Shown: piece after piece, positions 15,569 through 50,379 of the stretch
Layout: each line of letters begins with the position of its first letter
Numbering within the stretch: position 1 is the stretch's first letter
NCBI GenBank assembly: GCA_963708305.1
Contig: CAVPSH010000003.1
Coordinates: 561,812-625,811 of the forward strand
From: an uncultured bacterium
GTDB lineage: Bacteria > Verrucomicrobiota > Verrucomicrobiia > Limisphaerales > UBA11358
Direction of reading: 5' to 3'
Length of the DNA: 64,000 bases
The notes under the pieces: model-generated
The model's input: the letters and a program-made list of their open reading frames with translations, nothing else
Database searches by the model: none
What the model was told of the DNA's origin: nothing
Translations under genes and position numbers: made by a program

Positions 15569-16372
15569 TTACCCGCGATAATTCTTCATCAGCGCCAGCA
15601 TTTCCTTCACGGCCATTTCCAATCCGATGAGGACCGCCCGGCTGACAATGCTGTGGCCGATGTTCAGTTCCACCAGATGCGGGACAGCAAACAAGGCAGG
15701 CAGATTTTCGTAATTCAATCCATGCCCGGCGTTCACTTTCAAGCCGAGCGCATGCGCCTGTTTTGCGCCGGCAATGAGGCGCTGTAACTCAGTCGAGAGT
15801 CGAGGGTCGAGGGTCGAGGGTGAAACTTCCGTGTCGCCTGGCTCTCGACCCTCGACCTTCGACCTTCGACCAATTTGAAATTCCTCCGCAAACTGACCGG
15901 TGTGCAACTCCACAAACTGGCTGCCGACCCGGGCGCTGGCTTCAATCTGCTTTTCATCCGGCGCAATGAACAGACTCACCTCAATACCCGCGTCGTTCAT
16001 TTTTTTGCGCGTCTCGGTCAGGGATTTTTCGGCGGCGGCAACTTCCAGTCCGCCTTCGGTCGTCACTTCCGTCCGCCGTTCGGGCACGAGGCAGACGATG
16101 TCCGGCTTCAATTTCAACGCGAGGGTGATGATTTCCGGCACGTTGGCCATTTCGAGGTTCAGGCGGGTTTTGACCGTTTCGCGCAGTTTCAAAACATCAC
16201 GGTCCTGAATATGTCGCCGGTCTTCGCGCAGGTGCGCGGTGATGCCGTGCGCGCCGGCGGCTTCGCAAATCCGCGCGGCCGCGACCGGGTCCGGCTCGCC
16301 GAATCCGCGCCCGCGGTAACGTGCTTCGCGAATTGTCGCGACGTGGTCAATGTTGACACCCAGTTTCAGCAT
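15569..16372 (-). CDS. pdxJ: Pyridoxine 5'-phosphate synthase with a ~27-aa repeat-derived insertion
   Basis: [50 protein letters not shown]. Confidence 0.95.
15791..15871. repeat. Heptamer inverted repeat (GTCGAGG)n ... (CCTCGAC)n inside pdxJ
   Basis: agtcgagagtcgagggtcgagggtcgaggg, spacer, then ctctcgaccctcgaccttcgaccttcgacc. Confidence 0.88.
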
Positions 16373-16522
16373 TTCAAAAAGATGGCATTTCGTGCCAAAA
16401 GCGCCTTGGTTTGGCAAATCATTATATTCCAATTACTGCCGTTCGCCGAATCCGATCTGGTGTGCTGGATTAGTCATGTTTCGCTTGTTGGCTGCTGGCG
16501 AAAACGTTGGTAATCTCACTTT

Positions 16523-18952
16523 GTGAAACGCCCGCTGGTCAGCGTCGTTTCGTGCTACGTTGTCGGTTTGCTGCTCGCCGGAATTTTTCATCTGCCGCTC
16601 GGCCTGCTGTTCGCCGTCTCTTTTCTCGTCCTCGTTCTCGCTCTCGTCCTCGGGAAACTCCGTCCCTGGCTGATTTGGCCGCTGATCGTGCTGGCGGGCT
16701 GGACGAATCTCGCCAGCCGCACTGCTATTATTCCGCCGCATGACCTGCGCGCGGTGCTCGGCGATGACACCGCCATCGCCACGGTGCGCGGGACGTTGCT
16801 GGAAACACCCCACATCAAAATCATCGAACGCGACGGGCGGGAGACCGAACACTCGCTGGCCCAGGTCAAAGTAACCGAACTGCGCCGCGGAGAAAGCTGG
16901 CAACCAGTTGCCGGCGAAATCATCGTTACCACGCCCGACACATTGCCCGCCAATTTCTTTGCCGGCCAGCCGGTGGAAGTCACGGGCGTCATCACCCGGC
17001 CGCCATCGCCGCTGGCCGAAGGCCTTTTTGATTACCGCCACTATCTTGAAACGCGTGGGATTTATTACCAGCTCAAGACGGGCTCCACAAATGATTGGCA
17101 ATTACGGGAGCCGCCGTTGACACATCCGCCGTTGACCGACCGGTTTTTGAGCTGGTCAAAGCACACCCTGGCGCTCGGTTTGCCTGTCGAGGACGAACAA
17201 AAGGAGCCGCTGCGGTTGCTGTGGGCGATGACGCTCGGCTGGCGAACGGCGTTCACTGGTGACATCAGCGAACCGTTCCTGCGCGCCGGTACGATGCACT
17301 TGTTTGCCATTGACGGACTGCGTATCGCGCTGATTTCCGGGATGCTCGTGGCGCTGCTCCGCGTGTTGCAGGTTTCGCGCGGCTGGTGTGGGGTCGTGGC
17401 CATTCCGGTCATTTGGTTTTACACCGCGGCGACCGGCTGGGAATCTTCCGCCATCCGCGCGTCGGTGATGATGACCATAATCCTCGGCGGCTGGGCGTTG
17501 AAACGGCCGGGCGACACCGTCAATTCACTCGCCGCCGCGGCGTTCCTCATTTTGCTGTGGGAACCGCGCCAGCTTTTCGAAGCCAGTTTTGAACTTTCGT
17601 TTTTTGTCGTGCTCATCATCGCGCTGATGCTCCCCGCCTTGAACAAAATCATCGACCGAGGGCTGCGCCACGATCCACTCCTGCCGGATGAACTGCTTCC
17701 ACGCTGGCGGCGCGTGCTCACCACGACCTTGCGGATGCTCGGGCGTTATTGCGCGCTTTCGTTCGCAGCATGGGCCGGTTCCATCCCGCTCGCAGCCAAG
17801 TACTTTCACCTGTTCAGCCCGATTTCCACGCCCGCCAACATTGTCGCCGTGCCGCTCGGCACACTGGCTTTGATGAGCAACCTTGGTGCGCTCATCTGCG
17901 GTACCTGGCTGCCTTGGGTGACGGCGTTGTTCAACCACAGCGCGTGGTTTTTTATGGTGGCGATGACCTGGGTCAGCGAGGTCGCCACCAGGATTCCCGG
18001 GGCCTTCTTCTACGTGCCTGAGCCCTCGTGGCTGGAAATCGGAATTTATTACGCCGGGTTGGTGGGCGTGTTAAGCGGCTGGGTTTTGGCGCCCGGACGA
18101 AGAATTGGGAGCGCGGTGGCGTTGGTTCTCATCGTTGCCGGTTATGTCTGGTACTGGCAAACCGCGCGCAACGAGATCAATTTGACAGTCCTGCCGTTGA
18201 ATGGCGGCCATTCGGTGTTTGTGGATGCACCGGGGCAGGAAAACGACTGGCTGGTGGATTGCGGCAATGACGGCGCCGTCGAATTCACGCTCAAGCCATT
18301 TCTCCGGGCGCAAGGCGTGAACACAATCCAACGCCTGGTCTTGACGCATGGCGACGTGAAAGACGTCGGTGGCGCGGCAACTCTCGACCAACTTTTCGGT
18401 ATCGGCGAACTTTGGACCAGTCCCGCGAAGTTTCGCTCGCCGGCTTATCGCGGCATGGTTTCAGATTTTGAAAAGCCACCTGTTCGACATAAAATTTTCA
18501 ATTGTGGCGATTCCGCCGGCGATTGGCGCGCGTTGCATCCGGCTGCCGGAGATAATTTCCCGCGCGCGGATGACAATGCGCTGGTGTTATCCGGAAATTT
18601 TCACGGCACGCGCATTCTGCTGCTGTCCGATCTGGGGCGCGACGGTCAAGGTGCCTTGCTGGCACACACCAACGATTTACGTGCTGACATCGTGATTGCC
18701 GGCCTGCCGAATGACGGTGAACCGCTGGGTGACGAACTGCTGGAGGCAGTTCAACCGAAAGTGATTGTGGTTGCGGACTCGGAGTTTCCGGCGACGGGCC
18801 GGGCCGGTTCTCAACTGAAGGAACGCCTGGCCGGACGCAAGGTACCGGTGATTTACACCCGTTCGGCCGGTGCCGTAACAATTCTTATACGCCCGAAAGG
18901 CTGGGAATTGCGGACGATGGACGGGCGGAAATTCCCATCCACCAATCCATAG
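16523..18952 (+). CDS. comEC: ComEC/Rec2 competence protein (DUF4131-Competence-MBL-like)
   Basis: FDYRHYL, F.RAGTMHLFAIDGL, SAIRASVM, FELSF, LVDCG, THGD; many TM segments. Confidence 0.88.
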   Translation: MKRPLVSVVSCYVVGLLLAGIFHLPLGLLFAVSFLVLVLALVLGKLRPWLIWPLIVLAGWTNLASRTAIIPPHDLRAVLGDDTAIATVRGTLLETPHIKIIERDGRETEHSLAQVKVTELRRGESWQPVAGEIIVTTPDTLPANFFAGQPVEVTGVITRPPSPLAEGLFDYRHYLETRGIYYQLKTGSTNDWQLREPPLTHPPLTDRFLSWSKHTLALGLPVEDEQKEPLRLLWAMTLGWRTAFTGDISEPFLRAGTMHLFAIDGLRIALISGMLVALLRVLQVSRGWCGVVAIPVIWFYTAATGWESSAIRASVMMTIILGGWALKRPGDTVNSLAAAAFLILLWEPRQLFEASFELSFFVVLIIALMLPALNKIIDRGLRHDPLLPDELLPRWRRVLTTTLRMLGRYCALSFAAWAGSIPLAAKYFHLFSPISTPANIVAVPLGTLALMSNLGALICGTWLPWVTALFNHSAWFFMVAMTWVSEVATRIPGAFFYVPEPSWLEIGIYYAGLVGVLSGWVLAPGRRIGSAVALVLIVAGYVWYWQTARNEINLTVLPLNGGHSVFVDAPGQENDWLVDCGNDGAVEFTLKPFLRAQGVNTIQRLVLTHGDVKDVGGAATLDQLFGIGELWTSPAKFRSPAYRGMVSDFEKPPVRHKIFNCGDSAGDWRALHPAAGDNFPRADDNALVLSGNFHGTRILLLSDLGRDGQGALLAHTNDLRADIVIAGLPNDGEPLGDELLEAVQPKVIVVADSEFPATGRAGSQLKERLAGRKVPVIYTRSAGAVTILIRPKGWELRTMDGRKFPSTNP

Positions 18953-18998
18953 TTTCGACGGATTTAAAATCACACATTGGACTAAAAACCACCCCTCT

Positions 18999-19101
18999 GT
19001 AGCGCGGGCGTCTCCGCCTGCGGGTTTGCCCGGCGCCCCGCCGGGTGTTCCTTCCGGCGGCGAGACGCCGCCGCAACCCGCAGTCGGGACGACTGCGCTA
19101 C
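18999..19101. repeat. GTAG-capped nested palindromic element (GTAGCGC...GCGCTAC)
   Basis: gtagcgcgggcgtctccgcctgcggg ... cggcggcgagacgccgccg ... cccgcagtcgggacgactgcgctac. Confidence 0.8.
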
Positions 19102-19199
19102 GAACCCTTTATGGAAAGGAGCCGAGGTAAGGGGGCTCTGAATAAAGCCGAAACCAAAACAGAAGCCGAAAATGAGTCAGAACCGATTTACATCGGCTG

Positions 19200-19550: not shown

Positions 19551-19560
19551 TTCATTAATC

Positions 19561-19625
19561 GGAGGGACGAGTTCCACGAGTCCCACGAAAATTCAGTATC
19601 AGGGACTCGCATAGCTCGTCCCTCC
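19561..19625. repeat. GGAG-capped doublet, family F (GGAGGGACGAG...CTCGTCCCTCC)
   Basis: Overlaps the 3' end of the HAD-NUDIX gene. Another full copy at 51838-51948 and a half copy at 46280-46303. Confidence 0.85.
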
Positions 19626-20694
19626 GGCATGTTTCTCTGTCACTGCTTCCAGCAAAATCCGCGTCGGCGTATTCAGGGGCATTTTCAACGCTTCGGCAGT
19701 GGTGACCCAGCGGAATTCGCGCGCTTCATCATTGAGTTTCACAACCGGTTGGCCGGCGCAACGGCAGGTGTAATTCAACAACACGAAATGCGCGTCGCGG
19801 TAAAATTCCTTCGAGTGGATGCAATCCTGCACCAGCACGAATTCGATGTCCGCCACGTCCAGCCCGGTTTCCTCCTTGATTTCGCGGCGCAAGCGCATCC
19901 AACGACGGTTCGCCCCATTTGATTTTGCCGCCGGGAATGCCCCAGAGATTCGACCATTTGTGCGTGCGAATCATCAGTACCTCGCCCACGGTGTTGAAGA
20001 TCAGCGCACCGACCGTGGCCAGCGGCGGATGAATTTCTTCGAATTTTTCCGTTTCCGGTTTCAGGCGAAAATCGTCCTGTTCCAAAATGTGGCGCAATTC
20101 GCCGAGATGTTCGACAATCACATCCGGTTTCACCTCGCGCAACTGTTCCAGCGTGTTGTAGCCGGTCAGCACGGCGCAGGAATGAATGCCGCCATGCCGG
20201 GCGGTCTCAATGTCGTGCTGCATGTCGCCGATAAACAACGTTTCGTCCGGCACCAGCCGGTTTTCGGCGAGGATTTCGTGGATTTTTTCCCGTTTGTCCA
20301 GGACATCGGTGTAGGGCCGGTCGAGGAAGGCATCGAAACCGGTCACGCGGCTTTGCACCAGGAAATGGTCGTGGTGGATGGTGCTCAATACGAACGTGCG
20401 CAGCCGGCGGGCGCGGCAGAATTCGAGGAAATCACGCGCGTACGGCAGTTCCGCCACGGAATCCTGAATCTCGCGGTAGTGGCTGTGGAACCAGTCTTCC
20501 AGTTGCGGCAGCGGCACGTGCGGCGTGTGGCGGTGGTAAAAGTTAGTGAACGGCAGGGAAAATTCCGCGCGGAATTCCTCCAGCGACATCTCCGGGCGGT
20601 CGGCCTGGGCCAGAACGAAATTGGTGGCCTTCCAGACGGCGGGCAAATCGTCCACCAGCGTGCCCGACCAGTCGAAGATGATATTGCGAATCAC
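19599..20694 (-). CDS. HAD-family phosphatase fused to a NUDIX hydrolase (apparent indel near 19893)
   Basis: HAD motifs [19 protein letters not shown]. After removing one base the NUDIX box reads [25 protein letters not shown]. Confidence 0.88.
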
Positions 20695-20767
20695 AACGAC
20701 AGTCTAACGCAGGGAAAATTTGGGGCAACAGAATCAGAAATATTTGCAATACCGTTCCGTTGAGAGG

Positions 20768-20841
20768 CGGAGCGCCGGTCTCCGACCCGGCGTGTTCGGA
20801 AAATCAACAGCGTTGCGCCGGGGCGGGAGACCGGCGTTCCG
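20768..20841. repeat. GGAG-capped doublet, family E (GGAGCGCCGGTCTCCGACCCGGC...)
   Basis: Near-identical arms recur at 22514-22585. Confidence 0.85.
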
Positions 20842-21857: not shown

Positions 21858-22499
21858 ATGCTCATTGCCTTCCACAAGCCATTCGGTGTCGTCTCCCAGT
21901 TTACCAGTGACGGCCCGGCGAATCGCTCGCTGGCGGAATTTGGCTTTCCCAAAAACGTCTATTCCATCGGCCGGCTCGACACGGATTCGGAAGGCCTGCT
22001 GCTCTTGAGCGACGAACCGGAATGGAACGAACGCCTGCTGCATCCGCGTCATGCCCACGAACGCGAGTACTGGGCGCAGGTGGAACGCGTCCCCGAGCCG
22101 GAAGCGTTGAAGAAATTGGAACGCGGCATTTCCGTTCAAGGCCGGAAAACGCTGCCGTGCCGGGCGTGGGTTCTGGAGCCGCAACCGGAAGTCGTAGCAG
22201 CCGACGTGAGTCGGCTCCATAATTCAAGCAGCCAGAGCGGACTGACGTCCGCTGCTACGATGATTACAATCCCTCCACGCCATCCGCCCATCCGTTTCCG
22301 CAAAACCGTGCCGACGTGCTGGATCGGTCTGGAATTAATTGAAGGCAAAAACCGGCAGGTGCGCCGCATGACCGCCGCCATCGGCCATCCGACGTTGCGG
22401 TTGGTCCGGGTACGGATCGGCGGATTGAAACTTGGCACGCTGGCTGCAGGTGAATGGAAGGTTCTCGTGGCCGAAGAACGCCGGTTTTTGGCCGATTGA
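21858..22499 (+). CDS. rluE: rRNA pseudouridine synthase, RsuA family (RluE-like), with a 23-aa repeat-derived insertion
   Basis: FHKPFGVVSQFT, GRLDTDSEGLLLL, YWAQVE, PPIRFRK.VPT.W, EGKNRQVRRMTAAIGHPTLRLVR. Confidence 0.82.
   Translation: MLIAFHKPFGVVSQFTSDGPANRSLAEFGFPKNVYSIGRLDTDSEGLLLLSDEPEWNERLLHPRHAHEREYWAQVERVPEPEALKKLERGISVQGRKTLPCRAWVLEPQPEVVAADVSRLHNSSSQSGLTSAATMITIPPRHPPIRFRKTVPTCWIGLELIEGKNRQVRRMTAAIGHPTLRLVRVRIGGLKLGTLAAGEWKVLVAEERRFLAD
22192..22260. repeat. REP-like doublet, family B (CGTAGCAGC...GCTGCTACG), intragenic
   Basis: tcgtagcagccgacgtgagtcggctc...gagcggactgacgtccgctgctacga. Intergenic sibling at 24124-24197; single arm at ~19180-19203. Confidence 0.9.
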
Positions 22500-22513: not shown

Positions 22514-22585
22514 CGGAGCGCCGGTCTCCGACCCGGCACACAAGTGTTGGATTCCGAACGCGCCGGATCGGAGATCGGCGCTCCG
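22514..22585. repeat. GGAG-capped doublet, family E
   Basis: cggagcgccggtctccgacccggc...cgccggatcggagatcggcgctccg. Confidence 0.85.
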
Positions 22586-30250: not shown

Positions 30251-30400
30251 GGTGGGAACAGGGTCGTAAAAATGTGTCAAAAGTCCATTCAATTTTATCA
30301 TTAACACTAATCGCCGACGGCACGCCGGGAGCGATGCTTCAGCGTAGGTGGCAAAATTGATTCGCCCCGGAAACTTCGCTGTTGTAAGGTGCGCGCGATT

Positions 30401-31106
30401 ATGGGTGTGGCGGATATCAGGCGGGAATACTCGCAGGGTGGCTTGCGACGCACGGATTTGGAGGCCAATCCGGTGGCGCAGTTTCAAAAATGGTTCGCGC
30501 AGGCGGCGGGCGAATCGTCCGGCGGCCGCTGGCGCAAAATCGGCATCGCCCTGTTCAAACTTTGGCACGCCATCCTCGGCCATACGCCGATTGACGTGAA
30601 CGCGATGACGCTGGCGACGGTGGACAAGGATGGCCGGCCCTCCACCCGTACGGTTCTGCTCAAAGGCGTGGACGAACGCGGCTTTGTTTTTTACACGAAT
30701 CATGAGAGCCGCAAGAGCCGTGAACTGGCGGACAATCCCCACGCGGCGCTGACCTTTTATTGGGCGGACGCGGAACGGCAGGTCGGTGTGGGAGGCATGG
30801 TGAGCAAAATTTCCCGCGAAGAAACAGAAATGTATTTCAAAAACCGGCCGCGCGGCAGCCAACTCGCCGCCTGGGCGTCAAATCAGTTCGACGTGGTTGC
30901 CGACCGTACCGTCCTGGAAAAAAAATGGAACGAAATGGCGGCGCGCTTTTCCGGCGACGTGCCGTTGCCGCCGAACTGGGGCGGTTTCGTTTTGAAACCG
31001 GACTGGATTGAATTCTGGCAGGGCCGGCCCAGCCGGTTGCACGATCGTTTTCGCTACACGCGCGCAGCCCGATGGCGCGTGGAGATTGGAGCGGGTGGCG
31101 CCTTAG
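30401..31106 (+). CDS. pdxH: Pyridoxamine 5'-phosphate oxidase (apparent indel near 31064)
   Basis: DIRREY, NAMTLAT, R.VLLK, FYTN.ESRK, RP.GSQL.AWAS.Q, WGG, EFWQGR.SRLHDR. The corrected end is W.LERVAP*. Confidence 0.93.
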
Positions 31107-31119
31107 CCGTAACCATGCA

Positions 31120-31250
31120 GTAGGACGGGCGTCGCGCCGGTCTCTAACTTTTGAATTTGCTCCTTGAGGCGTTGTTTCCCGGGCTTATTGGCCGTCACCA
31201 ACTGGTGAGGGGAAATTTTTAGATGGAGACAGGCGCGACGCCTGTCCTAC
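31120..31250. repeat. REP-like doublet, family C (GTAGGACAGGCGTCGCGCCTGTC...GACAGGCGCGACGCCTGTCCTAC)
   Basis: Siblings at 40794-40919 and 42143-42220. Confidence 0.88.
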
Positions 31251-38391: not shown

Positions 38392-38517
38392 TCAGCCGCC
38401 GGGCCAACGGAAGGCGGATTCCTCACCATAGCGGTGGAACAGTCGCGCGTTTTTCGCGTGTTGGAGTGTTGAAACTTACACTTTCCAGTCGCCACCAATC
38501 GTCCTATTTTCCCGCCT

Positions 38518-40797
38518 GTGACTCTTCGCCGCGATCAACTCTTCACGCCGCTGAAACAGTTCTTCGGCTTCAGTTCCTTTCGCCCGTTGCAGGAGGAAAT
38601 CATCCGCGACTCGCTCGCCGGTCGGGACGTTTTCGCCGTGTTGCCGACCGGCGGCGGCAAATCGCTCTGTTTCCAACTGCCCGCGCTCGCTGCGGCCCGG
38701 ACTCACCGTCGTCGTCTCGCCGCTGATCGCGTTGATGAAGGACCAGGTGGACGCGCTCCAGGCGGCGGGCGTGGCCGCGACCTTTCTGAATTCATCGCTG
38801 GCTGCGGGCGAATCGCGTCCGCGCTTGCGCGGATTGCACAACGGGGAGTTTCGATTGCTCTATGTTGCGCCGGAGCGGTTGATGTTGTCCGGCTTTCTCG
38901 AAGATTTGAAAAAGTGGAACGTCAGCCTCTTCGCCATTGATGAAGCGCATTGCATCAGCGAATGGGGCCACGATTTCCGCCCGGAATACCGGCAATTATC
39001 GTCGCTGCGGGAAATTTTCCCGGGCGTGCCGATGATGGCGCTCACGGCCACGGCCACCGAGCGCGTGCGCGGCGACATCGTCCGGCAATTGCACCTGAAA
39101 GATTCCGCGTGTTACATCGCCAGTTTCAACCGCCCGAACCTGACCTATCGCGTCGCCGCCAAATCGGGGGCTTACGAGCAAATCCTTTCCTTCGTTCGCG
39201 CGCGGCCAAAAGAAAGTGGAATCATTTACTGTCCAGGCGCGGAAAACCGCCGACAGCATGGCGGGCAAACTTTCCGCCGATGGCGTCCAGGCGTTGCCGT
39301 ATCACGCGGGCATGACGGCGGGCGAGCCGGACAAAAAATCAGGAGGCGTTTCTCCGGGACGAGGCGCGCGTGATTTGCGCCACCATCGCCTTCGGCATGG
39401 GTATCAACAAACCGAACGTGCGTTTCGTGATTCACTACGACCTGCCCAAGAACATCGAGGGTTATTATCAGGAAACCGGCCGCGCCGGACGCGACGGCCT
39501 GCCGGGCGAATGTCTTTTGTTGTTCAGCCCCGGCGACCGCGTGAAACAGATGCGGTTCATTGACGAAAAACCGAATCCGCAGGAACGCGAAATCGCCCGC
39601 GCCCAACTGGAACAGATGATTCATTATGCCGAAATCGCCACCTGCCGCCGTGAGTTTCTGCTCGGATATTTCGGGGAGAAATTTACAATCGACGATGCCG
39701 GACAAGGTAGGGCGCGCCACTCCGTGCGCGCCGACCTTACGACGTTGGACAACGGCGCGCACGGAGTGGCGCGCCCTACCGAGCTCGTGAACTGCGGCGG
39801 CTGCGACAATTGCCTGGCCCCGCGCGCGACCTGGGATGGCACGCTGGCCGCGCAGAAATTTCTCTCATGCGTTTATCGCATCCGCGAGAAAAGCGGATTT
39901 GGCGTCGGCATCCAGCACGTGGTCGAGGTACTCTGCGGCGCGGAGACGGAGAAAGTCCGCAAGTTCGGTCATCACACGCTTTCGACCTACAACATCGGCG
40001 AAGGGCACGCGCGCGCGGAGTGGGCGGCGATCGGCCGCGAGCTGGTGCGGCTTGGCCTGTTGTTCCAAAACCCGGAGAAGTTTAACATCGTCGAACTGAC
40101 GGATGCCGGTCGCGTGGTGCTCAAAGCACGGCAGAAAATCACGCTGACCAAACCGGTGGCGCCGACCGGGCCGGCGAAACATCGCGCCGGGGAAATCGCC
40201 TGCGACGAGGTGTTGTTTGAAAAATTGCGCACGCTGCGCAAACAACTCGCCGACGAACGCGCCGTGCCGCCTTACATCATTTTCTCCGACGTGTCGCTGC
40301 GGCAGATGGCGCGGTTTTATCCGGCGGGCGAAAAGGATTTCTCTCGCATGAGCGGCGTGGGTGAAAGGAAATTGCGCGAATTCGGCGAAATGTTCCTGCG
40401 CGAAATTGCGGCGCATTTACAAACGAACCCGCGCCAGGTTTTTGCCGACGATTTTCCGCAACCGGGGATGCCCTCCGTTCCAATGCCGCGCCGTTCGCGG
40501 CTGACGGATACCGTGCGCGAGACCTTGCACTTTTTCCGGCAGGGCAAGACCGTTCCCGAGATTGCAGAGATTCGCAGTGTCAAAGCGGACACGATTTACA
40601 GCCATCTGGAAGAAGCCATGCTCGCGGGTGAGGCCATTGACGTGAGTTCCCTGATCCCGGCCGAAGCCCAACGCGACATCGCCGCGGCCTTCGCCAAACG
40701 CGGTTTCGTCAGCCTCGGCGTCGTGGTTGAATCGCTCGGCGGCAAATATGGCTACGGCGAATGCCGCGTTGTCCGCGCCGCGTTGCAAAGAGCGTAG
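38518..40797 (+). CDS. recQ: ATP-dependent DNA helicase RecQ (apparent single-base insertions near 38689, 39232 and 39327)
   Basis: [68 protein letters not shown]...CG.CDNC, RQC, HRDC (VPPYIIFSD), C-terminal HTH. Confidence 0.93.
39706..39780. repeat. REP-like doublet, family A, in frame inside recQ
   Basis: ggtagggcgcgccactccgtgcgcgccg...cggcgcgcacggagtggcgcgccctacc, 75 bp. Confidence 0.93.
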
Positions 40798-40919
40798 GAC
40801 AGGCGTCGTGCCTGTCTCCATCTTTGATCTGTTCCTCATCGCCCTTGGGTCACGCATTCGAGACGAACCATCAAAATGAGATATTTTGGAGTCAGAGACA
40901 GGCGCGACGCCTGTCCTAC
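40794..40919. repeat. REP-like doublet, family C, overlapping the recQ stop
   Basis: gtaggacaggcgtcgtgcctgtctc...gagacaggcgcgacgcctgtcctac. Confidence 0.9.
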
Positions 40920-40960
40920 TTTGACTCGCTTTTTCGGCAAGCCGACTATAACTTCCCCGG

Positions 40961-43913
<2,953 letters not shown>

Positions 43914-43915
43914 TA

Positions 43916-44342: not shown

Positions 44343-45395
44343 TCAGCCAACACGAACACGCCTTGGGTCGGCGTTGCCGGTTTGTGGACATCGCCTTTTC
44401 GCGGTGCCAGTTGCGCGACTTGAAAAACATCGCGAGCGCAGATCGGCGGTTTTGCCTTGAAGAATCGCGTCGTGAGCGGCTTTAAGTTCGGCGTCGGTTG
44501 CAGCGTCAGCGAAAAAGCGAAATGAGGATGCAGCGAGATAGTCAAGGCGTTCGTCAAAGGCAAGCCATTTGCGACCTTCACGCTCGGCCACGAAACCGGT
44601 CGTGTTTGAGCCTGCAAAGATGTCCAGCACAAGGTCGCCCGGTTCAGTGAGAAATCGGATGAAAAATTCCGGCAGCTTCGCCGGGAAGCGGGCGGGATGA
44701 CCTTTCACTCCAACAGTTTTGCAACCGCGCAAATAGCTGCCGTTGGATTCAGAATTTGAGATTTGCAAAAGATTCGGGGGGATTGCTCCGCCATTGTCTT
44801 TGCCGAAAGCTTTGCCGATGTCGTGACCGGATGGACGTTTCTTCGGTGTGTAAAAACCTTCCGGGTCTTCAAGCAGTTTTTTCATCCGGTCGCTGTATTC
44901 AGCGAGCACTTTGGTGACATTGGCTTTGGGCCAGCGGGTTTTTCCAAACCACCAGACGGTATTGACCGCATCCTTCGCCCGGAGTTTGCGTTTGTTCACC
45001 CATTCAATCGGGCTGGGCAACTTGGACGGGTTGAACCAGTAAAAATCCTCGGCGAGATAAAAGCCGAGTTCGTCACAGAAATGAATCGGAACGCGGAAGT
45101 TGTAGAGGCTGCGAGTGGGTGAACCCAATTCGTAAGCACCGCCAAAGTCGAGAACGAAGCTGCCGTCATCCTTGAGCTTGCGATGCACTAGCCGGGCAAA
45201 CTGCGCGAGCCAGGCCACATATTCGGATTGGGCTTTATTTCCGTATTCCTTTTCGCGCTGAAGTGCAAAGGGTGGACTGGTGAGAACGAGGTTGACGCTG
45301 GCATCTGGCAGCGACGCGAGCAGGTCGAGCGAGTCGCCACAATACGCCGCTCCCCAGTTTGTGAGATAGGCAGGCGCATGATTTTCCAGCAACAT
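44343..45395 (-). CDS. Site-specific DNA methyltransferase, beta class (N4-cytosine), M.PvuII-like
   Basis: TSPPFAL.R.KEYGN, WFNPSKLPSPIEWVNKRK.R.KD, HPARFPAKLPEFFIR.LT, LVLDIFAGSNTTG. The C-terminus may extend to 44267 if there is an indel near 44435. Confidence 0.92.
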   Translation of the reverse strand: MLLENHAPAYLTNWGAAYCGDSLDLLASLPDASVNLVLTSPPFALQREKEYGNKAQSEYVAWLAQFARLVHRKLKDDGSFVLDFGGAYELGSPTRSLYNFRVPIHFCDELGFYLAEDFYWFNPSKLPSPIEWVNKRKLRAKDAVNTVWWFGKTRWPKANVTKVLAEYSDRMKKLLEDPEGFYTPKKRPSGHDIGKAFGKDNGGAIPPNLLQISNSESNGSYLRGCKTVGVKGHPARFPAKLPEFFIRFLTEPGDLVLDIFAGSNTTGFVAEREGRKWLAFDERLDYLAASSFRFFADAATDAELKAAHDAILQGKTADLRSRCFSSRATGTAKRRCPQTGNADPRRVRVG

Positions 45396-45401
45396 AAAAG
45401 C

Positions 45402-45427
45402 TACTTTAAGTCTGTAGATATAAAGGC
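45402..45427 (+). promoter_or_regulatory. C-box operator pair
   Basis: TACT-TTA-AGTC-TGTA-GATA-TAA-AGGC fits the C.PvuII-family consensus GACTnnnAGTC-TGTA-GACTnnnAGTC. A -10-like GATAAT lies at 45437-45442, just before the C gene ATG. Confidence 0.8.
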
Positions 45428-45451
45428 GTCAATTTCGATAATCTGCCGCAG

Positions 45452-45679
45452 ATGAAAATCAAGCCATCCGCTCGCAGAATTTTCGCTGAAAATTTGCGCA
45501 AGACAAGACTGGCGAAAGATCTTTCTCAAGAAGATTTGGCGGAGTTGGCAAATCTGCATCGCACTTATGTTGGTTCGGTCGAGCGGGCTGAACGGAATGT
45601 TTCCATAGACAACATGGAGCGGCTGGCTGCTGCTGTGGGCGTTTCGCTCCCAAAATTATTGCTGGAGGACAAGCATTGA
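45452..45679 (+). CDS. R-M controller protein (C.PvuII-like XRE HTH)
   Basis: FAENLR..R...[34 protein letters not shown]; overlaps the endonuclease start by 4 bp. Confidence 0.93.
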
Positions 45680-46167
45680 AATCGCATCCCGACACGGCGG
45701 AACTCGAACGGCTGTTTCCTTACATCCGCGAATATCAGGCACTCGCCTCGAAGCATGGCATCGGCGACATTTTTCAAGACAACGGCGGCAAACTGTTGCA
45801 ACTTCTGCTGATTACGGGACTCAAAGGCGCGGGCAGCCGTGAAGGCAATGATGCCAGTGATGAAGCCGGTAACGAATACGAATTGAAGTCGGTCAACACG
45901 TTGCTGACACAGAGTTTTTCAACCCATCATCACATGAACCCAACCATCCTCGCCAAGTATCGGCAGGTGGATTGGATTTTTGCTATCTACAAAGGTATAG
46001 AACTACAGGCGATTTATCGAATGAAGCCAGCGGGCATTGAACCTTATTTCTCCAAGTGGGAAACGAAATGGCACGAGTCCGGCGGCAAGGACATCAACAA
46101 TCCAAAAATTCCCGTGAAGTTTGTCGTTGAGCACGGGGAGTTGATTTATCGAAAACCTGAGGCGTGA
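45676..46167 (+). CDS. Type II restriction endonuclease, PvuII family (predicted site CAGCTG)
   Basis: Segments [69 protein letters not shown] match R.PvuII as I recall it. Confidence 0.9.
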
Positions 46168-46370
46168 CCATTTCGTTAATGCCAACGGAATGGTTAGTGA
46201 ATATCTGATTAATCGCTTATCAGTGTGAATCAGCGGTTGAAAATGCTTTGCGCCTTTGCGTCTCTGCGGTTCAGGATTTGGGACTCGTGGAACTCGCCCC
46301 TCCGGTTCTTTGGCGGATTTCGGCCCGGATGACGGCCAATTGCGCGCGCGGTTCGTCATTGGTTCGTGGT

Positions 46371-47885
46371 TTATTTGACGGGAATCAACATCTGGGTGAA
46401 TGAATGCGACGGGAAGTTGTATTTGATGTCGTGACCGCTGAATTGGATTTCCCGGGTGGCGATGGCGACAGCTTCGTTGGTCCGGGTATTCGTTGAAGTG
46501 ACTGACTCGGCGTTGATCTCCTTCACCGTGGCGCTTCCGGTATATTCTCCGCTCTGCAATACGAGGTCGGCGGTCATGGCGTTCGTTTCGCTGCGGTTGA
46601 CCACATTGACGACCAGATTTTTGGCGGAATCATTGAACACGGCGGTCACATCGAGATAGGGGATGTCCTTAAAAAATTTGTTGCTGTAATTTTGGCCGGC
46701 GACATTCACGTCCAGGGCGGTGCCGCGCGCGTTGTTGGAATACAGATAAAAGGCCTGATACAGCGCATTCTTGTAATCGCCATCGGGCGAAGTTCCCACG
46801 AGGCTGGAAAGCATGGTGATGTTCGCCATCTTGACGATGTCGGCGTGGCGGATAAAGGAGTTCAGGTGCTGGGCGACCATGAGCGAGCCGGTCAAGTTGG
46901 CGCCCCGGGGTCCAAAACCTGGGGACCATTCGTCAAAGGAGATATAAATCGGGCGTTTGGAGGTGGAATTCGCCATCGCCTTTTCGATCTCGGCCTTGAC
47001 CACGTCAATTTTTTGATCAATCTCCAACCCCATGGAAATCACGTCAGGGTATTGCGTGTCACCGTTCAGCGCGTTTTGGAAGTATCGGTGAACGGACAGG
47101 TAATCAATGCTGCCTGCCATGTGCTGCAAAACGTAATCGTTCCATTCCATCCACTTGTTGTCGGGCTGGTAATTGGACGCGCCGTCGGCGATGAATTTCA
47201 CGTTGGGGTCCACCAGGTGCATGGCTTTGGCGGCTTCCAGCGCAAACTTGCAGTAGTCCTTGGCGTTCTTTTGACCGAGTTGCCAGGGGCCGTCAATTTC
47301 GTTGCCGAGCGACCAGTATTTGACGTTGAAGGGTTGTTCATTGCCGTACTTTCGCCGGAGGTCGGAGTAATAGGTTCCCTTGGGATAATTGCAGTATTCG
47401 ATCCAATACCTCGCCTGGTCCAGCGTCCCCAGGCCGGCATTGATGCAGACGAAATTCTCCGCGCCGATGAGGCTGCAGAGTTTGGCGTATTCATCCGTGC
47501 CCATCTGATTGCGGTCAATTTGATTCCAGGCCAGGTCGAGCCGGACTGGACGCTGGTCCTTCGGGCCAATTCCATCCTCCCAATTGTAACCGGAGACATA
47601 ATTCCCGCCGGGCCACCGCACCACCGGGATGTGCAGTTCTTTGACCAGTTGAATAAAATCTGTCCTGAACCCGTTCGTGTCTGCCAGGGGAGATTTGGGG
47701 TCATAAATCGTGCCATAAACCACCGTGCGGATTGGCTCAAGAAAACCGCCGTAGATGTTGGGGTCCACTTCACTGATTTTTCGGTTCAGATCAACCTTGA
47801 TGACCGCCGTTTGGTCCGCCCGGAGATTCCCGGCGATGAGGCCGGAGAGAAAAATTCCAGTGAAAAGGAGATTTCGCGTGTTCAT
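46371..47885 (-). CDS. GH51 alpha-L-arabinofuranosidase, secreted
   Basis: Signal peptide; IYGGFLE, VRWPGGNYVS.Y.WEDGIGP, W.LGNE.DGPWQ.G, SFDEW, R.AD.VKMAN. Confidence 0.9.
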   Translation of the reverse strand: MNTRNLLFTGIFLSGLIAGNLRADQTAVIKVDLNRKISEVDPNIYGGFLEPIRTVVYGTIYDPKSPLADTNGFRTDFIQLVKELHIPVVRWPGGNYVSGYNWEDGIGPKDQRPVRLDLAWNQIDRNQMGTDEYAKLCSLIGAENFVCINAGLGTLDQARYWIEYCNYPKGTYYSDLRRKYGNEQPFNVKYWSLGNEIDGPWQLGQKNAKDYCKFALEAAKAMHLVDPNVKFIADGASNYQPDNKWMEWNDYVLQHMAGSIDYLSVHRYFQNALNGDTQYPDVISMGLEIDQKIDVVKAEIEKAMANSTSKRPIYISFDEWSPGFGPRGANLTGSLMVAQHLNSFIRHADIVKMANITMLSSLVGTSPDGDYKNALYQAFYLYSNNARGTALDVNVAGQNYSNKFFKDIPYLDVTAVFNDSAKNLVVNVVNRSETNAMTADLVLQSGEYTGSATVKEINAESVTSTNTRTNEAVAIATREIQFSGHDIKYNFPSHSFTQMLIPVK

Positions 47886-47936
47886 AAAACGATGGTGTTG
47901 ATTTGAGTTCGACACTAGCGAGGCGCAAATAAGGAG

Positions 47937-48191
47937 TCAATCCGTGGTTAATGCAGACCGAATGGCGGCCAGTTCGGCGCGCGGTTCATCTTCGACATGT
48001 TCCAGCCGGCCGGCGCGTTGATACCAGTAACGGGCGTTGCCCAAATCGCCCTCGATTTTATGTAGCACCGCGTGAATCCAGGCAGCTGTGGTGTCGTCTT
48101 CGTATTGCTGGACCAGTTGATGGGCGGCGTCCCAGTTGCCGGCCAGGGCCAACTCCACCGCTTTGAGCAGATGGTCGTTTAGCGCGCTCAT
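47937..48191 (-). CDS. Conserved small helical hypothetical protein
   Basis: WDAAHQLVQ...AAWIHAVLHKIEGDLGNARYWYQRAG pattern, typical of a widespread uncharacterised family. Confidence 0.78.
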   Translation of the reverse strand: MSALNDHLLKAVELALAGNWDAAHQLVQQYEDDTTAAWIHAVLHKIEGDLGNARYWYQRAGRLEHVEDEPRAELAAIRSALTTD

Positions 48192-48271
48192 GGTGGGTGT
48201 TTTACTGCCAAACCGGCACAGCGGCAAGCGTGGCGGGTGGATTTGGTGGTAGGGTCGACATGGTTTTGAAA

Positions 48272-48406
48272 GGTAGGGTTGGCGCGCTGCGCCGACCGGC
48301 GCCGCGTCCAGCGGCGCAATGGGATGGCGCGGGAGGTTATGGGCCGTGGAGCGTCAGGTTCCGGCCCTGAACGGGCTGGAGGTCATCGCAGCGCGATGAC
48401 CCTACC
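48272..48406. repeat. REPIN-like element, family D, left of the RAYT gene
   Basis: ggtagggttggcgcgctgcgccgacc...ggtcatcgcagcgcgatgaccctacc, with internal hairpins gcgccgcgtccagcggcgc and ggccctgaacgggct. Confidence 0.92.
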
Positions 48407-48431
48407 TCAAGATGGGCGCTATGGATCAACT

Positions 48432-48905
48432 CTAATCCGGAAATCCGTGTCTTTCGCCGTCTCCGAAATAGATATGGGGCCAACCCTTGGCTTGTGACAC
48501 GAGCTGCTTGCGAACCGGATTTTCCAGAATGTAATCCGCCTTCTGCCGCCGGCTTTCGTCGTGTCGCAATCTGTGCTCAAAGAAACTGCGTTGCCATTGA
48601 ATACCAATTGTTTTGGCCGTCCACTCTTTCCATTTGCGAATGACCATCTGGATTTGTTCGTCGGAAGGTGGAAACGACAGCAACGCGTGTAGATGATCCG
48701 GCATCAGCAAGAATACGTACGGCCACCATAGGAAGTTAGCCTGGCGATATCGAACGGTTTCAAAAAGTCGCTCAGCGACGTCGGGCAGCGCAAGTTGATT
48801 TAAGCCGCGCGGCTGGCAGTTGATGGTGATGAAATAAACCTCTTTTGAAGGATCCACCCACAGCGGAATTTCATGTGGAAGATATTTGCGGTGGGGAAGA
48901 TTCAT
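48432..48905 (-). mobile_element. REP-associated tyrosine transposase (RAYT/TnpA-REP, HUH Y1 family)
   Basis: YFITI, LMPDHLH (HUH), WQRSFFEHRLR, YILENPVR (catalytic Tyr); no tnpB; flanked by GTAG-capped palindromes. Confidence 0.9.
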
Positions 48906-48955
48906 TTGCGGAACCATAGAACATGAAATGTCATTCGGACAAGCGCACTTTGAAA

Positions 48956-49093
48956 GGTAGGGTCGGCGCGCTGCGCCGACCGGCGCCGCGTCCAGCGGCG
49001 CAACGGGGTTGATTCGAAAGGGTGTGGTATGGCCGAAGCCTTTCGTTCCGGCCCTGAACGGGCCGGAGGTCATCGCAGCGCGATGACCCTACC
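48956..49093. repeat. REPIN-like element, family D, right of the RAYT gene
   Basis: Same orientation as 48272-48406 with near-identical arms and a different central spacer; both are preceded by TTTGAAA. Confidence 0.92.
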
Positions 49094-49110
49094 GAATTAC
49101 ACCTCAGCGG

Positions 49111-50379
49111 CTAAACCCGGTCCAGCGCCTGTTTTAGGTCGGCGATCAGGTCGCGCGTGTCTTCGAGACCGAGGGCGAGGCGCACGAGGTTGTCCACAAT
49201 GCCGATGCTTTCGCGGTATTCGACCGGGTAATCGTAAAACGACATCGTGGACATCTGGGTAACGAGGCTTTCGGAGCCGCCGAGGCTCGGCGTGATGAGG
49301 AACAGTTCCAGGCGGTCAATGAATCGGCGCGTTGCCTTGCCGTCGCCTTTCAGGAGAAAGGTGATGACACTGCCGGCGCCGCGCATCTGGCGCTTGGCGA
49401 TGCGATAATCCGGATGTGATTTCAATCCCGGATACCAGACCCGCTCGATTTTGGGATGCGATTCCAGAAAGCGGGCCACTTCCAGGCCGGCAGCATTGTG
49501 GTGGTCCATGCGCAGGCCGAAGGTCTTGAGTCCGCGCTCGAGCAGGAAACAACTGAACGGGCCGGCCATGGAGCCAATCATGCGCTGCAATTTGTTGAGT
49601 TCCTCCAACTGCTTGTGGCCGCCGAGCGTGACGCCCGCCAGCAGGTCGTTGTGTCCGGCAAGATATTTCGTTGCGGAATGGATGACGAGGTCCACGCCCA
49701 TTGCCAGCGGCCGGATGTTGTACGGCGTCGCCAGCGTGGCATCAATCATCGTCAGAATTTTGTGGCGGCGGGCGACTTGGACGACCGCCGGGATGTCCAG
49801 CACGCGCAGGTAAGGGTTGGTGGGTGATTCGGTGAAAATGATGTTCGTGTTGGGCCGGATGGCTTCTTCAATGGCCGCGGCGGTCGGCGCGACAAGACTG
49901 GTCTGGATACCGAACTTCGTGAGCAGGTTGGTGGCAAAATCGCGCGTCTGCCGGTAGCAATCGCTGGTGAAAATAATGTGGCCGTCGGGCTTCATGTAGG
50001 CCATCAGGGTCATGATCACCGCGCTCATGCCGGTGGAGAAAATGATGGCCCGCTCGGCGCCTTCGATGGCGGCCAGCTTCCGCTCGGCTTCCTGCTGGGT
50101 CGGATTGCCGTATCGGCCGTATTCCTGTTCGCGAATGATGCGGCCTTCGCCTTTGGCTTTCATGAACTCGACCACCTCGGTCATGTTGTCAAAACTGTAA
50201 TTCGAGGTCTGGACGATGGGTGTGGAAACGGCGTGGTGGGCCTTGCGCAGGCGCGCCCGGCCATGGATTGCAAGTGTCGAAGTTCCCCAGGAATGAGGCT
50301 TGGAGAGGTAGGGTTGGCGCGCTGCGCCGACCGGACGCCGCAGCGCGGCGTCCCTACCTTTTTTGACTGATTTACGCAT
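49111..50379 (-). CDS. metB: Cystathionine gamma-synthase / Cys-Met metabolism PLP enzyme
   Basis: [48 protein letters not shown]; start overlaps the thrC stop. Confidence 0.82.
50307..50358. repeat. Compact family D doublet inside the 5' coding end of metB
   Basis: ggtagggttggcgcgctgcgccgaccggacgccgcagcgcggcgtccctacc. Confidence 0.88.

What the first reader, a model, noticed from the sequence alone, without database searches (positions are those of the whole stretch)
15791..50358. Repeat families that insert in frame into housekeeping genes, with a RAYT in the same window
Seen: four different GTAG-capped palindrome families occur both between genes and inside the coding sequence of conserved genes. 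The intragenic copies are family A in recQ (75 bp), C in gcvP (78 bp), B in rluE (69 bp) and D at the metB N-terminus. A heptamer inverted repeat (~81 bp) also lies in pdxJ. The three internal doublets are multiples of 3 and read GTAG as GGT-AGG or GTA-G, so TAG is out of frame. Intergenic siblings have mixed lengths (56, 74, 75, 126, 131 bp). Known: REP/REPINs are spread by RAYT HUH transposases and are described as extragenic; in-frame palindrome insertion is best known from Rickettsia palindromic elements. Inference: this lineage carries a RAYT-linked system that adds peptide loops to core proteins at high density (five genes in 64 kb). I do not know of this being described for Verrucomicrobiota.
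Basis: partly seen in the sequence, partly recalled or inferred. Interest (0 to 1): 0.85.

Follow-up and report, generated by a model that had tools for sequence, protein, structure and literature searches.

The report
Palindromic repeats inserted inside core genes
Short mobile palindromes (REP/REPIN elements with their own transposases) sit in frame inside several housekeeping genes of this soil Verrucomicrobiota genome, a phenomenon already published for a cultured member of that phylum, although different repeat families re-using the very same codon position in related species is a less documented twist.

Summary
GTAG-capped REPIN doublets lie in frame in recQ, gcvP, rluE and at the metB N-terminus, and an inverted heptamer array lies in pdxJ. 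Orthologues with empty sites are 13-32 residues shorter. A genuine RAYT (NCBIfam equivalog, HUH and Tyr aligned to E. coli TnpArep) lies in the window, flanked by family-D repeats. Families A, B and C have their own RAYTs elsewhere in the genome.

The interpretation needs correcting. Intragenic GTAG REPs were described in 2013, with the highest count in the verrucomicrobium O. terrae. The window is the most REP-dense 64 kb of the genome, so five genes per 64 kb is not typical. Genome-wide, 41 of 217 elements are in open coding frames, against 54% of random segments. Net insert length is a multiple of 3, but cap-to-cap length is not, which fits purifying selection rather than a loop-adding system.

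recQ and gcvP carry single-base frameshifts that are absent from independent metagenome contigs. These are probably assembly errors.

The less documented part is site re-use. The same rluE and recQ codon positions hold at least six different palindrome families across related genomes, which suggests targeted insertion or in-place turnover. The genome also has a strong excess of heptamer tandem arrays, a quarter of them in coding frames.

The parts
15569..16432 (-). pdxJ (287-aa ORF)
   Evidence: Pfam PdxJ E=1.7e-93. Profile positions 1-234 are spread over residues 23-282, so about 26 residues are extra.
15792..15870 (.). Inverted heptamer-array element inside pdxJ: (GTCGAGG)x4.3, 22-nt spacer, (CTCGACC)x4. 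It is not a GTAG REP.
   Evidence: (I12). It is shared with G004 and G011. 7 of 11 aligned orthologues are 17-19 aa shorter here, and 2 carry other inserts.
21858..22499 (+). rluE-type pseudouridine synthase (213 aa)
   Evidence: Pfam PseudoU_synth_2 E=4e-19.
22192..22260 (.). Family B (my family 0) REPIN in frame in rluE. The net insertion is 78 nt relative to the empty site.
   Evidence: (I16).
38480..40797 (+). recQ (start approximate). In this assembly it is split over four frames by single-base insertions at 38511, 38689, 39230 and 39325.
   Evidence: Pfam DEAD, Helicase_C, RecQ_Zn_bind, RQC, HRDC. Frames. Contigs of 3-4 metagenome runs lack one base at each of the four places (table 4).
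39706..39780 (.). Family A (my family 3) REPIN in frame in the recQ zinc-binding region. The net insertion is 96 nt relative to empty sites.
   Evidence: (I5).
40794..40919 (.). Intergenic family C (family 1) REPIN between recQ and gcvP. Its GTAG cap supplies the recQ stop codon (TAG 40795-40797).
   Evidence: I11. G016 has a family-2 REPIN in the same intergenic slot and G008 has none.
40961..43913 (+). gcvP, with a +1 frameshift (an extra T in a T run) near 43395 in this assembly
   Evidence: Pfam GDC-P E=4e-197. tblastn with the G016 protein switches frame at 43395/43396. Some contigs in each of the 4 runs lack one base at one of 43390-43397 (table 4).
42143..42220 (.). Family C (family 1) REPIN in frame in gcvP (peptide [24 protein letters not shown])
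   Evidence: (I6). All 11 aligned orthologues are 13-23 aa shorter here.
42434..42465 (+). Heptamer tandem array (AATTCGC)x4.6 inside gcvP (peptide [11 protein letters not shown])
   Evidence: Relatives carry arrays of the same length with other units at the same site.
48271..48407 (.). Family D (family 2) composite REP cluster on one side of the RAYT
   Evidence: D1, D14; I2.
48432..48917 (-). RAYT (REP-associated tyrosine transposase), 161 aa
   Evidence: NCBIfam NF047646 scores 92.3 bits against a cut-off of 80. PDB 4ER8 TnpArep E=4e-10, with HLH aligned to HMH and DYILENP to DYIYINP. Pfam Y1_Tnp scores only 16.8 bits.
48956..49093 (.). Family D composite REP cluster on the other side of the RAYT
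   Evidence: (I1).
49111..50379 (-). metB-type Cys/Met PLP enzyme, from the ATG at 50379
   Evidence: Pfam Cys_Met_Meta_PP E=2e-127. Start codon read.
50306..50359 (.). Family D REPIN (54 nt, 18 codons) after codon 7 of metB. No alternative start codon lies between it and the conserved WG..TLAIHG.
   Evidence: It is shared with G004 with compensatory stem changes and is absent in G001 and G011.
1717..1772 (.). Intergenic REP doublet (families 5 and 3)
   Evidence: (I13).
10252..10325 (.). Intergenic family A REPIN just after the ORF that ends at 10246
   Evidence: I14.
31120..31250 (.). Intergenic family C REPIN. Its GTAG cap supplies the stop (TAG 31121-31123) of ORF 30389-31123.
   Evidence: I9.
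55398..55472 (.). Intergenic family A REPIN nested between inverted heptamer arrays (55360-55389 and 55492-55517)
   Evidence: (I3, I10).

Best explanation
These are ordinary selfish REP/REPIN elements. Each is a GTAG cap followed by an imperfect hairpin, mostly arranged as inverted doublets. Each family is paired with its own RAYT (an HUH/Tyr single-strand DNA transposase) in a 'REPtron'.

In this Verrucomicrobiota lineage the elements also land in coding DNA. Copies survive only where the net insertion keeps the frame, carries no stop, and falls in a tolerant surface segment. That filter is why every surviving intragenic copy looks 'in frame'.

Shown here:
- the families and their RAYT linkage;
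- the in-frame copies;
- empty orthologous sites;
- depletion of REPs in coding DNA;
- a bias towards short-spacer forms inside genes.

Inferred:
- mobilisation by the RAYTs;
- translation of the inserts;
- that the same-site occupancy by different families reflects targeted insertion or in-place replacement at an existing REP slot, rather than chance.
For: Families. There are 7 main GTAG-hairpin families of 88, 87, 45, 36, 33, 28 and 24 units. The 341 units form 217 elements, of which 112 are two-unit elements, mostly convergent doublets.

RAYT linkage. The window RAYT passes the NCBIfam equivalog cut-off and aligns its HUH and Tyr motifs to 4ER8. The genome has 13 NF047646 matches. Six RAYT-like genes are flanked by one family each: families 2, 3, 1 (two genes), 0 and 6.

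Empty sites.
- rluE: 9 of 11 aligned relatives are filled and 2 are empty. The empty ones are 26 aa shorter.
- recQ: 9 filled and 2 empty, the empty ones 32 aa shorter.
- pdxJ: 7 of 11 are 17-19 aa shorter.
- gcvP: 11 of 11 are 13-23 aa shorter.
- metB: 1 of 3 relatives shares the insert and 2 lack it.

Wider panel. At the rluE site 59 orthologues are empty, 6 are filled and 15 could not be evaluated, out of 80.

Selection filter.
- 41 of 217 elements are in open coding frames, against 2722 of 5000 random 75-bp segments (Fisher p=8e-26).
- Family-1 doublets inside genes measure 66-109 nt, against mostly 98-142 nt outside (Mann-Whitney p=0.0015).
- Cap-to-cap lengths are not multiples of 3.

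Reality of the inserts. The recQ, pdxJ and metB inserts recur in the independently assembled G004.

Precedent. Di Nocera et al. 2013 (PMC3733652, passages).
Against: - No transposition, transcription or translation was observed. No RNA holder was listed for this stretch.
- No contig listed bridges a REPIN in recQ or gcvP. Contigs stop at the REP borders.
- The assembly carries about one single-base insertion per kb in the 5.5 kb examined. In-frame calls across the genome are therefore noisy, and my coding caller recognises only 54% of random segments. The 19% is a rough lower bound.
- Five RAYT-like genes have none of the seven families beside them.
- GTAG caps are not mutated more often in coding copies: 8 of 36 units with altered caps are intragenic, against 42 of 217 with intact caps (p=0.66).
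Confidence: 0.8

Rival explanations
1. Chance re-use. Insertions are random, and the same loop is hit repeatedly only because very few positions in each protein tolerate an insert. No targeting or in-place turnover is involved.
For: - Insert borders differ by a few nucleotides between species. Examples are G000 GAA-GTC-GTAG, G004 GAA-CAG-GTAG and G011 GAA-ATGATTTTCACCCCC-GTAG.
- A second site in rluE is filled in G011.
- Di Nocera et al. found most REPs in equivalent genes at different sites.
Against: - At least six different palindrome families occupy one codon position in rluE, and again in recQ.
- The intergenic recQ-gcvP slot also switches family between G000 and G016.
- Rough estimate (inference, not computed). 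About 200 fixed elements per genome, spread over roughly 0.5 Mb of tolerant DNA in about 20 species, predicts well under one hit per 10-bp site.
Confidence: 0.2
2. Domesticated function. The lineage uses RAYT-linked repeats to add peptide loops, or in-gene DNA/RNA hairpins, that benefit the host proteins or their expression.
For: - The rluE and recQ sites stay occupied across many species and across genus boundaries (G022, G020).
- The metB insert keeps its hairpin through compensatory changes between G000 and G004.
- Di Nocera et al. noted an excess of hosts in DNA repair and RNA modification.
Against: - The peptide sequences at a given site are unrelated between species.
- Empty sites occur within the genus (G002 and G003 for rluE; G008 for recQ).
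- REPs are depleted in coding DNA.
- 59 of 65 evaluated orthologues outside the close clade have no insert.
Confidence: 0.1
3. Artefact or pseudogenes. The inserts are mis-assemblies, or the interrupted genes are dead.
For: - recQ shows four frame breaks and gcvP one in this assembly.
- Genome completeness is only 81% for 7 contigs.
- No listed short-read contig bridges the REPINs.
Against: - The frame breaks are single extra bases that contigs from 3-4 independent metagenome runs lack (table 4). One sits in a T run.
- None of the frame breaks lies in a repeat.
- The same inserts at the same sites occur in other assemblies (G004, G011).
- All inserts are open and in frame with both flanks.
Confidence: 0.03

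Closest known systems
Intragenic GTAG REPs of Opitutus terrae and other bacteria (Di Nocera, De Gregorio & Rocco 2013, BMC Genomics 14:522; PMC3733652, passages read)
   Same: - The phylum matches. The closest named relatives of this genome are Verrucomicrobiota/Verrucomicrobiia MAGs by their record titles.
- Several GTAG families coexist in one genome.
- REPtrons are present.
- Dimers encode 20-30 aa inside genes of known function, including repair helicases and pseudouridine synthases.
- GTGG cap variants occur.
- GTAG caps supply TAG stop codons.
   Different: - This is a different, uncultured lineage.
- Whether the families are the same as GTAG-17 to GTAG-20 was not tested, because the figure and Additional file 3 were not available.
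- The paper notes only one case of different REPs at about the same site (Xanthomonas recB). Here at least six families share one site in rluE and in recQ.
Rickettsia palindromic elements (RPE; as cited in PMC3733652; details from recall)
   Same: Palindromic repeats are inserted in frame into conserved genes that stay functional, adding short peptide segments.
   Different: - According to PMC3733652, RPE-4 and RPE-6 belong to the CGTC class, which has no dedicated transposase.
- The elements here are GTAG-capped and have cognate RAYTs.
- The host is free-living, not an obligate intracellular bacterium.
REPIN-RAYT systems of Pseudomonas and Enterobacteria (Bertels & Rainey 2011, PMC3116915, and later work; search listings and abstracts seen)
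   Same: - Inverted REP doublets.
- One RAYT per family, flanked by its own REPs.
- Several systems per genome.
   Different: Those REPINs are described as extragenic. Here roughly a fifth or more lie in coding frames.
Heptameric tandem repeats (STRR of Calothrix; GGGAATC of Xanthomonas and GGGGAYT of Nostoc; Rehm et al. 2015, PMC4692102, passages read)
   Same: - Heptamer-period arrays are in excess over other periods.
- About four units is the preferred size.
- Some arrays occur as inverted pairs.
   Different: - Here there are 111 different units, not one G-rich unit.
- About a quarter are in coding frames, whereas those repeats are reported as under-represented in coding regions.

Membership tests
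REP/REPIN-RAYT (REPtron) system | Short imperfect palindrome (20-40 nt) capped by GTAG, in many dispersed copies | tested here: met
   GTAG plus hairpin at 316 of 9248 GTAG sites, against 1.2% for control caps. There are 7 families of 24-88 units.
REP/REPIN-RAYT (REPtron) system | Units paired in inverted orientation (REPIN doublets) | tested here: met
   112 of 217 elements have two units, and the commonest architectures are X+X-.
REP/REPIN-RAYT (REPtron) system | RAYT gene flanked by its own REP family | tested here: met
   The window RAYT is flanked on both sides by family 2. Five other RAYT-like genes are flanked by families 3, 1, 1, 0 and 6. Five further RAYT-like genes are flanked by none of the seven families.
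REP/REPIN-RAYT (REPtron) system | RAYT protein with an HUH motif and a catalytic Tyr, related to E. coli TnpArep | tested here: met
   NF047646 scores 92.3 bits against a cut-off of 80. 4ER8 E=4e-10, with HLH/HMH and DYILENP/DYIYINP aligned.
REP/REPIN-RAYT (REPtron) system | Extragenic location | tested here: not met
   41 of 217 elements lie in open coding frames, and five cases were verified against orthologues. This is a descriptive feature rather than a mechanistic one, and published exceptions exist (PMC3733652).
REP/REPIN-RAYT (REPtron) system | RAYT-dependent cleavage or mobilisation of the REPs | not testable with these tools
   Needs biochemistry or mobilome sequencing.
Intragenic GTAG REPs as in O. 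terrae (Di Nocera 2013) | GTAG REP dimers entirely inside ORFs of known function, encoding about 20-30 aa | tested here: met
   recQ +32 aa, rluE +26 aa, gcvP +13 to +23 aa and metB +18 aa relative to empty orthologues.
Intragenic GTAG REPs as in O. terrae (Di Nocera 2013) | Same REP families (GTAG-17 to GTAG-20) as O. terrae | not tested
   The consensus sequences are in a figure and in supplements that are not held.
Rickettsia palindromic elements | In-frame insertion into conserved genes | tested here: met
Rickettsia palindromic elements | RPE sequence families (CGTC-type for RPE-4/6), with no dedicated transposase | tested here: not met
   The elements here are GTAG-capped and RAYT-linked. 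The classification of RPE-4/6 is taken from PMC3733652.

The most novel reading that the evidence does not exclude
REPIN 'slots' exist inside coding sequence. Once a palindrome sits in a tolerant loop, the site becomes a preferred substrate. RAYTs of whichever family is active cut at the GTAG caps shared by all families and overwrite or precisely excise the resident element. The result is that one codon position in a core enzyme (rluE, recQ, pdxJ) cycles through unrelated 14-34-residue peptides and back to empty within a genus. The heptamer arrays may follow a parallel in-place turnover, because relatives carry arrays of the same length with different units at the gcvP site. This would be a transposase-driven generator of loop diversity at fixed positions in housekeeping proteins.
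Probability: 0.35. Interest if true: 0.7.

Novelty: new member of a known kind. Interest (0 to 1): 0.4.

Why it matters
In-frame REP insertion shows how far selfish single-strand transposon relics can invade essential genes without killing them. It also marks, at no experimental cost, the loops in RecQ, GcvP, RluE, PdxJ and MetB that tolerate 14-34 extra residues.

The basic phenomenon is published, so its presence in one more Verrucomicrobiota lineage is of modest interest.

What could matter is the recurrent use of one codon position by many REP families. This occurs together with empty sites in the same genus and with the same family switching in an intergenic slot. If it reflects RAYT targeting of existing REPs plus precise excision, it would give a testable model for how REPIN populations persist at fixed loci. 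It would also explain how coding loops diversify.

Practical points:
- This assembly has frequent single-base insertions, so gene calls in it need polishing.
- REP-derived peptides such as ..SRLTSAAT.. or ..GAHGVARPT.. in annotated proteins of this clade should be read as repeat-encoded.

Tried and rejected
- **Structure of G000 RluE.** An AlphaFold2 model from a 20-sequence alignment had mean pLDDT 49.2 and pTM 0.44. Residues 112-151 were low, but so were 1-52 and 165-183. It is too poor to say that the insert is a surface loop, so it was not used.
- **Cap erosion.** I tested whether coding copies lose the GTAG cap more often. They do not (8/36 against 42/217, p=0.66). nhmmer with 19-22-nt cores found no family-1 hits at all, so this census is incomplete.
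- **Length mod 3.** Comparing cap-to-cap length mod 3 between intragenic and intergenic doublets showed no restriction to one class. The element borders are not known, so this does not measure the true insert.
- **First coding-context caller.** The caller with 150-nt flanks recognised only 39% of random segments. It was replaced by the ORF-based caller.
- **First hairpin scan.** It timed out and was rewritten. It missed family A, whose stem has a bulge, and was replaced by a folding-energy scan.
- **Expression.** No RNA holder was listed for window 38400-43900.
- **Read support.** The Logan contigs laid break at REP borders. Among the pieces listed, none bridges the recQ or gcvP REPIN and none skips it. 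Many rows were not shown. Spanning was therefore neither shown nor refuted.
- **Shared target motif.** A motif at the empty rluE and recQ sites was looked for by eye only. None was evident.

Full report
**Where the window lies.** The window is G000:C3:561812-625811. G000 is a 4.14-Mb assembly in 7 contigs with 57% G+C and an estimated completeness of 81%. The closest named relatives, found with an RluE alignment, are MAGs titled Verrucomicrobiota or Verrucomicrobiia bacterium.

**The repeats are real.** The inverted-repeat scan gives the following elements.

| Host gene | Window position | Size | Notes |
|---|---|---|---|
| recQ | 39706-39780 | 75 bp | 28-nt arms, 100% complementary |
| gcvP | 42143-42220 | 78 bp | right cap mutated |
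| rluE | 22192-22260 | 69 bp | |
| metB | 50306-50359 | 54 bp | |
| pdxJ | 15792-15870 | 79 bp | inverted array of the heptamer GTCGAGG |

Pfam confirms the host genes.

The signal is above chance across the genome. GTAG is followed by a hairpin at 316 of 9248 sites (3.4%), against 1.2% for four control caps. By folding energy, 597 of 9247 GTAG sites reach -8 kcal/mol, against 3.4% for controls.

Clustering gives seven main families of 88, 87, 45, 36, 33, 28 and 24 units. The 341 units form 217 elements, and 112 of these have two units, mostly as convergent doublets, which is the REPIN form.

**The RAYT is real.**
- ORF 48432-48917(-) scores 92.3 bits on the NCBIfam equivalog 'REP-associated tyrosine transposase', whose cut-off is 80.
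- It matches E. coli TnpArep (4ER8) at E=4e-10, with the HUH motif and the Tyr motif aligned.
- Pfam Y1_Tnp alone gives only 16.8 bits.
- The gene is flanked on both sides by 137-nt composite family-D clusters.

The genome has 13 matches to the RAYT model. Five other RAYT-like genes are each flanked by one family (3, 1, 1, 0 and 6), and five have none of the seven families beside them. This is a genome with several REPtrons. Only family D is tied to the RAYT in the window.

**The inserts are in frame and derived.**
- *rluE.* Nine of 11 aligned relatives have an insert between ..EPQPE and IPPR.. Two (G002, G003) have the bare junction and are 26 aa shorter. The match table suggests six further empty sites through split matches. 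I did not align those.
- *recQ.* Nine of 11 aligned relatives are filled. Two (G008, G023) are empty and 32 aa shorter. In G008 the empty recQ lies next to gcvP, as in G000.
- *gcvP.* All 11 aligned relatives are 13-23 aa shorter at the REPIN.
- *pdxJ.* G004 and G011 share the heptamer element, two relatives carry other inserts, and seven are 17-19 aa shorter.
- *metB.* Only 3 of 20 relatives have the gene. G004 shares the 54-nt REPIN, with compensatory stem changes. G001 and G011 lack it. In G000 the REPIN follows codon 7, and no other start codon precedes the conserved region.
- *Wider rluE panel.* Among the best 80 of 597 RluE loci from other genomes, 59 are empty, 6 are filled and 15 could not be evaluated. 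None of these loci duplicates the 12 earlier ones.

**The frameshifts are probably assembly errors.** recQ is split over several frames, and gcvP changes frame near 43395 at an extra T in a T run. I laid contigs of four soil, peat or wetland metagenome runs on 38400-43900. They are 95-99% alike. They lack one base at 38511, 38689, 39230 and 39325 in 3-4 runs each. Some contigs of each run also lack one base at one of 43390-43397. None of these sites lies in a repeat. The genes are therefore most likely intact in nature, and the assembly carries about one spurious base per kb here. The same contigs break at the REP borders. No listed piece bridges or skips a REPIN.

**Genome-wide picture.** I trained a three-periodic Markov coding model on long ORFs. 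An element was called intragenic if one open frame runs through it with at least 120 nt on each side and is the best-scoring frame on both flanks.

| Measure | Result |
|---|---|
| REP elements passing | 41 of 217 |
| Random 75-bp segments passing | 2722 of 5000 |
| Odds ratio | 0.19 (p=8e-26) |
| Elements in the window | 14 of 217 (genome mean 3.35 per 64 kb) |
| Intragenic calls in the window | 3 (genome mean 0.63) |

REPs are thus depleted in genes but far from excluded. The caller misses much true coding sequence, so the real share is probably higher. The window is the densest stretch of the genome, so its density is not typical.

Cap-to-cap lengths of the 22 intragenic doublets fall 3/8/11 into the classes 0/1/2 mod 3. 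The frame is therefore kept by the net insertion and not by the element. Family-1 doublets inside genes are the short-spacer forms (66-109 nt, against mostly 98-142 nt outside; p=0.0015). All of this is what purifying selection on random or semi-random insertions would leave behind.

**What is known.** Di Nocera, De Gregorio and Rocco (2013, PMC3733652; I read passages) surveyed GTAG and CGTC REPs. Their relevant statements are:
- GTAG REPs occur in the PVC superphylum.
[quoted passage not shown] - Hosts include repair genes, RNA helicases and pseudouridine synthases.
- GTAG is changed to GTGG in one O. terrae family.
- GTAG ends often supply TAG stop codons.
- REPtrons accompany the families.

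They relate the phenomenon to the Rickettsia palindromic elements.

**What seems less documented.** At the rluE junction the filled genomes carry unrelated palindromes:

| Genome or locus | Palindrome at the rluE site |
|---|---|
| G000 | family 0 |
| G004, L065 | family 5/3 heterodimer |
| G011, G009, L056, L058 | a GTAGCGGCG..CAGAGCGCCGC family |
| G022 | a GTAGGAGACGACG family |
| G010, G012, L054, L063 | family-2-like forms, some with GTGG caps |
| G001, G007 | a GGTGGGGCGAG.. form |
| L055 | a GTAGGGCAGGCGG.. form |

At the recQ junction there are family 3 (G000, G004), family-2-like (G012), family-0-like (G005, G001), family-1-like (G020, G002), an uncapped CGGAGCGCCGGTCTCCGACCC family (G011, G003) and another palindrome in G022. 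The intergenic slot between recQ and gcvP holds family 1 in G000, family 2 in G016 and nothing in G008.

G000 and its closest relative G004 share the inserts in recQ, pdxJ and metB but differ in family at rluE. A rough estimate (inference, not a computation) is that random fixation of a few hundred elements per genome over about half a megabase of tolerant DNA predicts far fewer than one hit per 10-bp site. Repeated chance hits therefore look unlikely.

Two mechanisms would fit. One is insertion targeted to existing hairpins or REPs. The other is overwriting of a resident element by the currently active family, with precise excision giving back empty sites. Precise excision and short-target specificity are established for the related IS200/IS605 transposases (from my own knowledge, not tested here). 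Di Nocera et al. mention one such case, different REPs at about the same site in Xanthomonas recB. My literature searches (and the REPORTH preprint passages) found no systematic description. They covered only the held library.

**A second class: heptamer arrays.**
- The pdxJ element is not a REP.
- Across the genome, period-7 tandem arrays with at least 3 copies number 353. The figures for periods 6, 8, 9 and 5 are 93, 43, 31 and 14.
- There are 370 arrays with 111 distinct units.
- 34 neighbouring pairs are reverse complements with a spacer of about 22-25 nt, as in pdxJ.
- Only 4 arrays lie within 60 nt of a REP.
- 91 of the 370 are in open coding frames by the same caller.
- gcvP holds one at 42434-42465. 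At that site relatives carry arrays of the same length but with other units.

An excess of heptameric repeats is known in many bacteria (STRR, and the Xanthomonas and Nostoc G-rich heptamers), where they are reported as under-represented in coding regions (PMC4692102 passages).

**Verdict.** The mechanism is the known REP/REPIN-RAYT one, filtered by selection. The interpretation as a loop-adding system that is new for the phylum is not supported. The finding is a new member of a known kind. Two side observations deserve follow-up: same-site turnover of families, and coding heptamer arrays.

Noticed in passing
whole genome G000; in the window 7760-7868, 15028-15047, 15443-15477, 15792-15870, 42434-42465, 55360-55517: There is a strong excess of heptanucleotide tandem arrays. 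353 arrays of period 7 have >=3 copies, against 93, 43 and 31 for periods 6, 8 and 9. They use 111 distinct units. 34 occur as inverted pairs with a spacer of about 22-25 nt. 91 of 370 lie in open coding frames.
   Followed up: partly
window 42434-42465 (gcvP) and L002, L003, L004, L008, L012: The heptamer array inside gcvP has the same length in relatives but a different unit: AATTCGC, AATCGGC or a GACTTTG type. It gives 7-residue periodic peptides.
   Followed up: partly
window 38511, 38689, 39230, 39325 and about 43395: The assembly has single extra bases relative to contigs of 3-4 metagenome runs. They break recQ and gcvP. This is about one per kb in the 5.5 kb examined, so gene calls across this genome are likely affected.
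   Followed up: yes
window 40794-40797 and 31120-31123: The GTAG cap of an intergenic REPIN supplies the TAG stop codon of recQ and of ORF 30389-31123. This was also noted in general by PMC3733652.
   Followed up: partly
window 20768-20841, 22514-22585; 19560-19626, 46277-46304, 51835-51951: Two further palindromic repeat families have no GTAG cap (CGGAGCGCCGGTCTCCGACCC.. and CGGAGGGACGAGTT..). The first also fills the recQ site in G011 and G003.
   Followed up: partly
window 44343-45395(-) and 45676-46167(+): An N6_N4 DNA methylase lies next to a PvuII-type restriction endonuclease (Pfam E=1.5e-40 and 6.8e-69). This is a type II restriction-modification pair.
   Followed up: no
L031 (G011 rluE), residues about 17-30: G011 has a second insert near the N-terminus of RluE (..SACADRGASAQQRPE..). 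It is absent from the other 10 aligned sequences.
   Followed up: no
window 55360-55516: A family-A REPIN is nested between two inverted heptamer-like arms of 41 nt with 76% complementarity, forming a larger composite palindrome.
   Followed up: no
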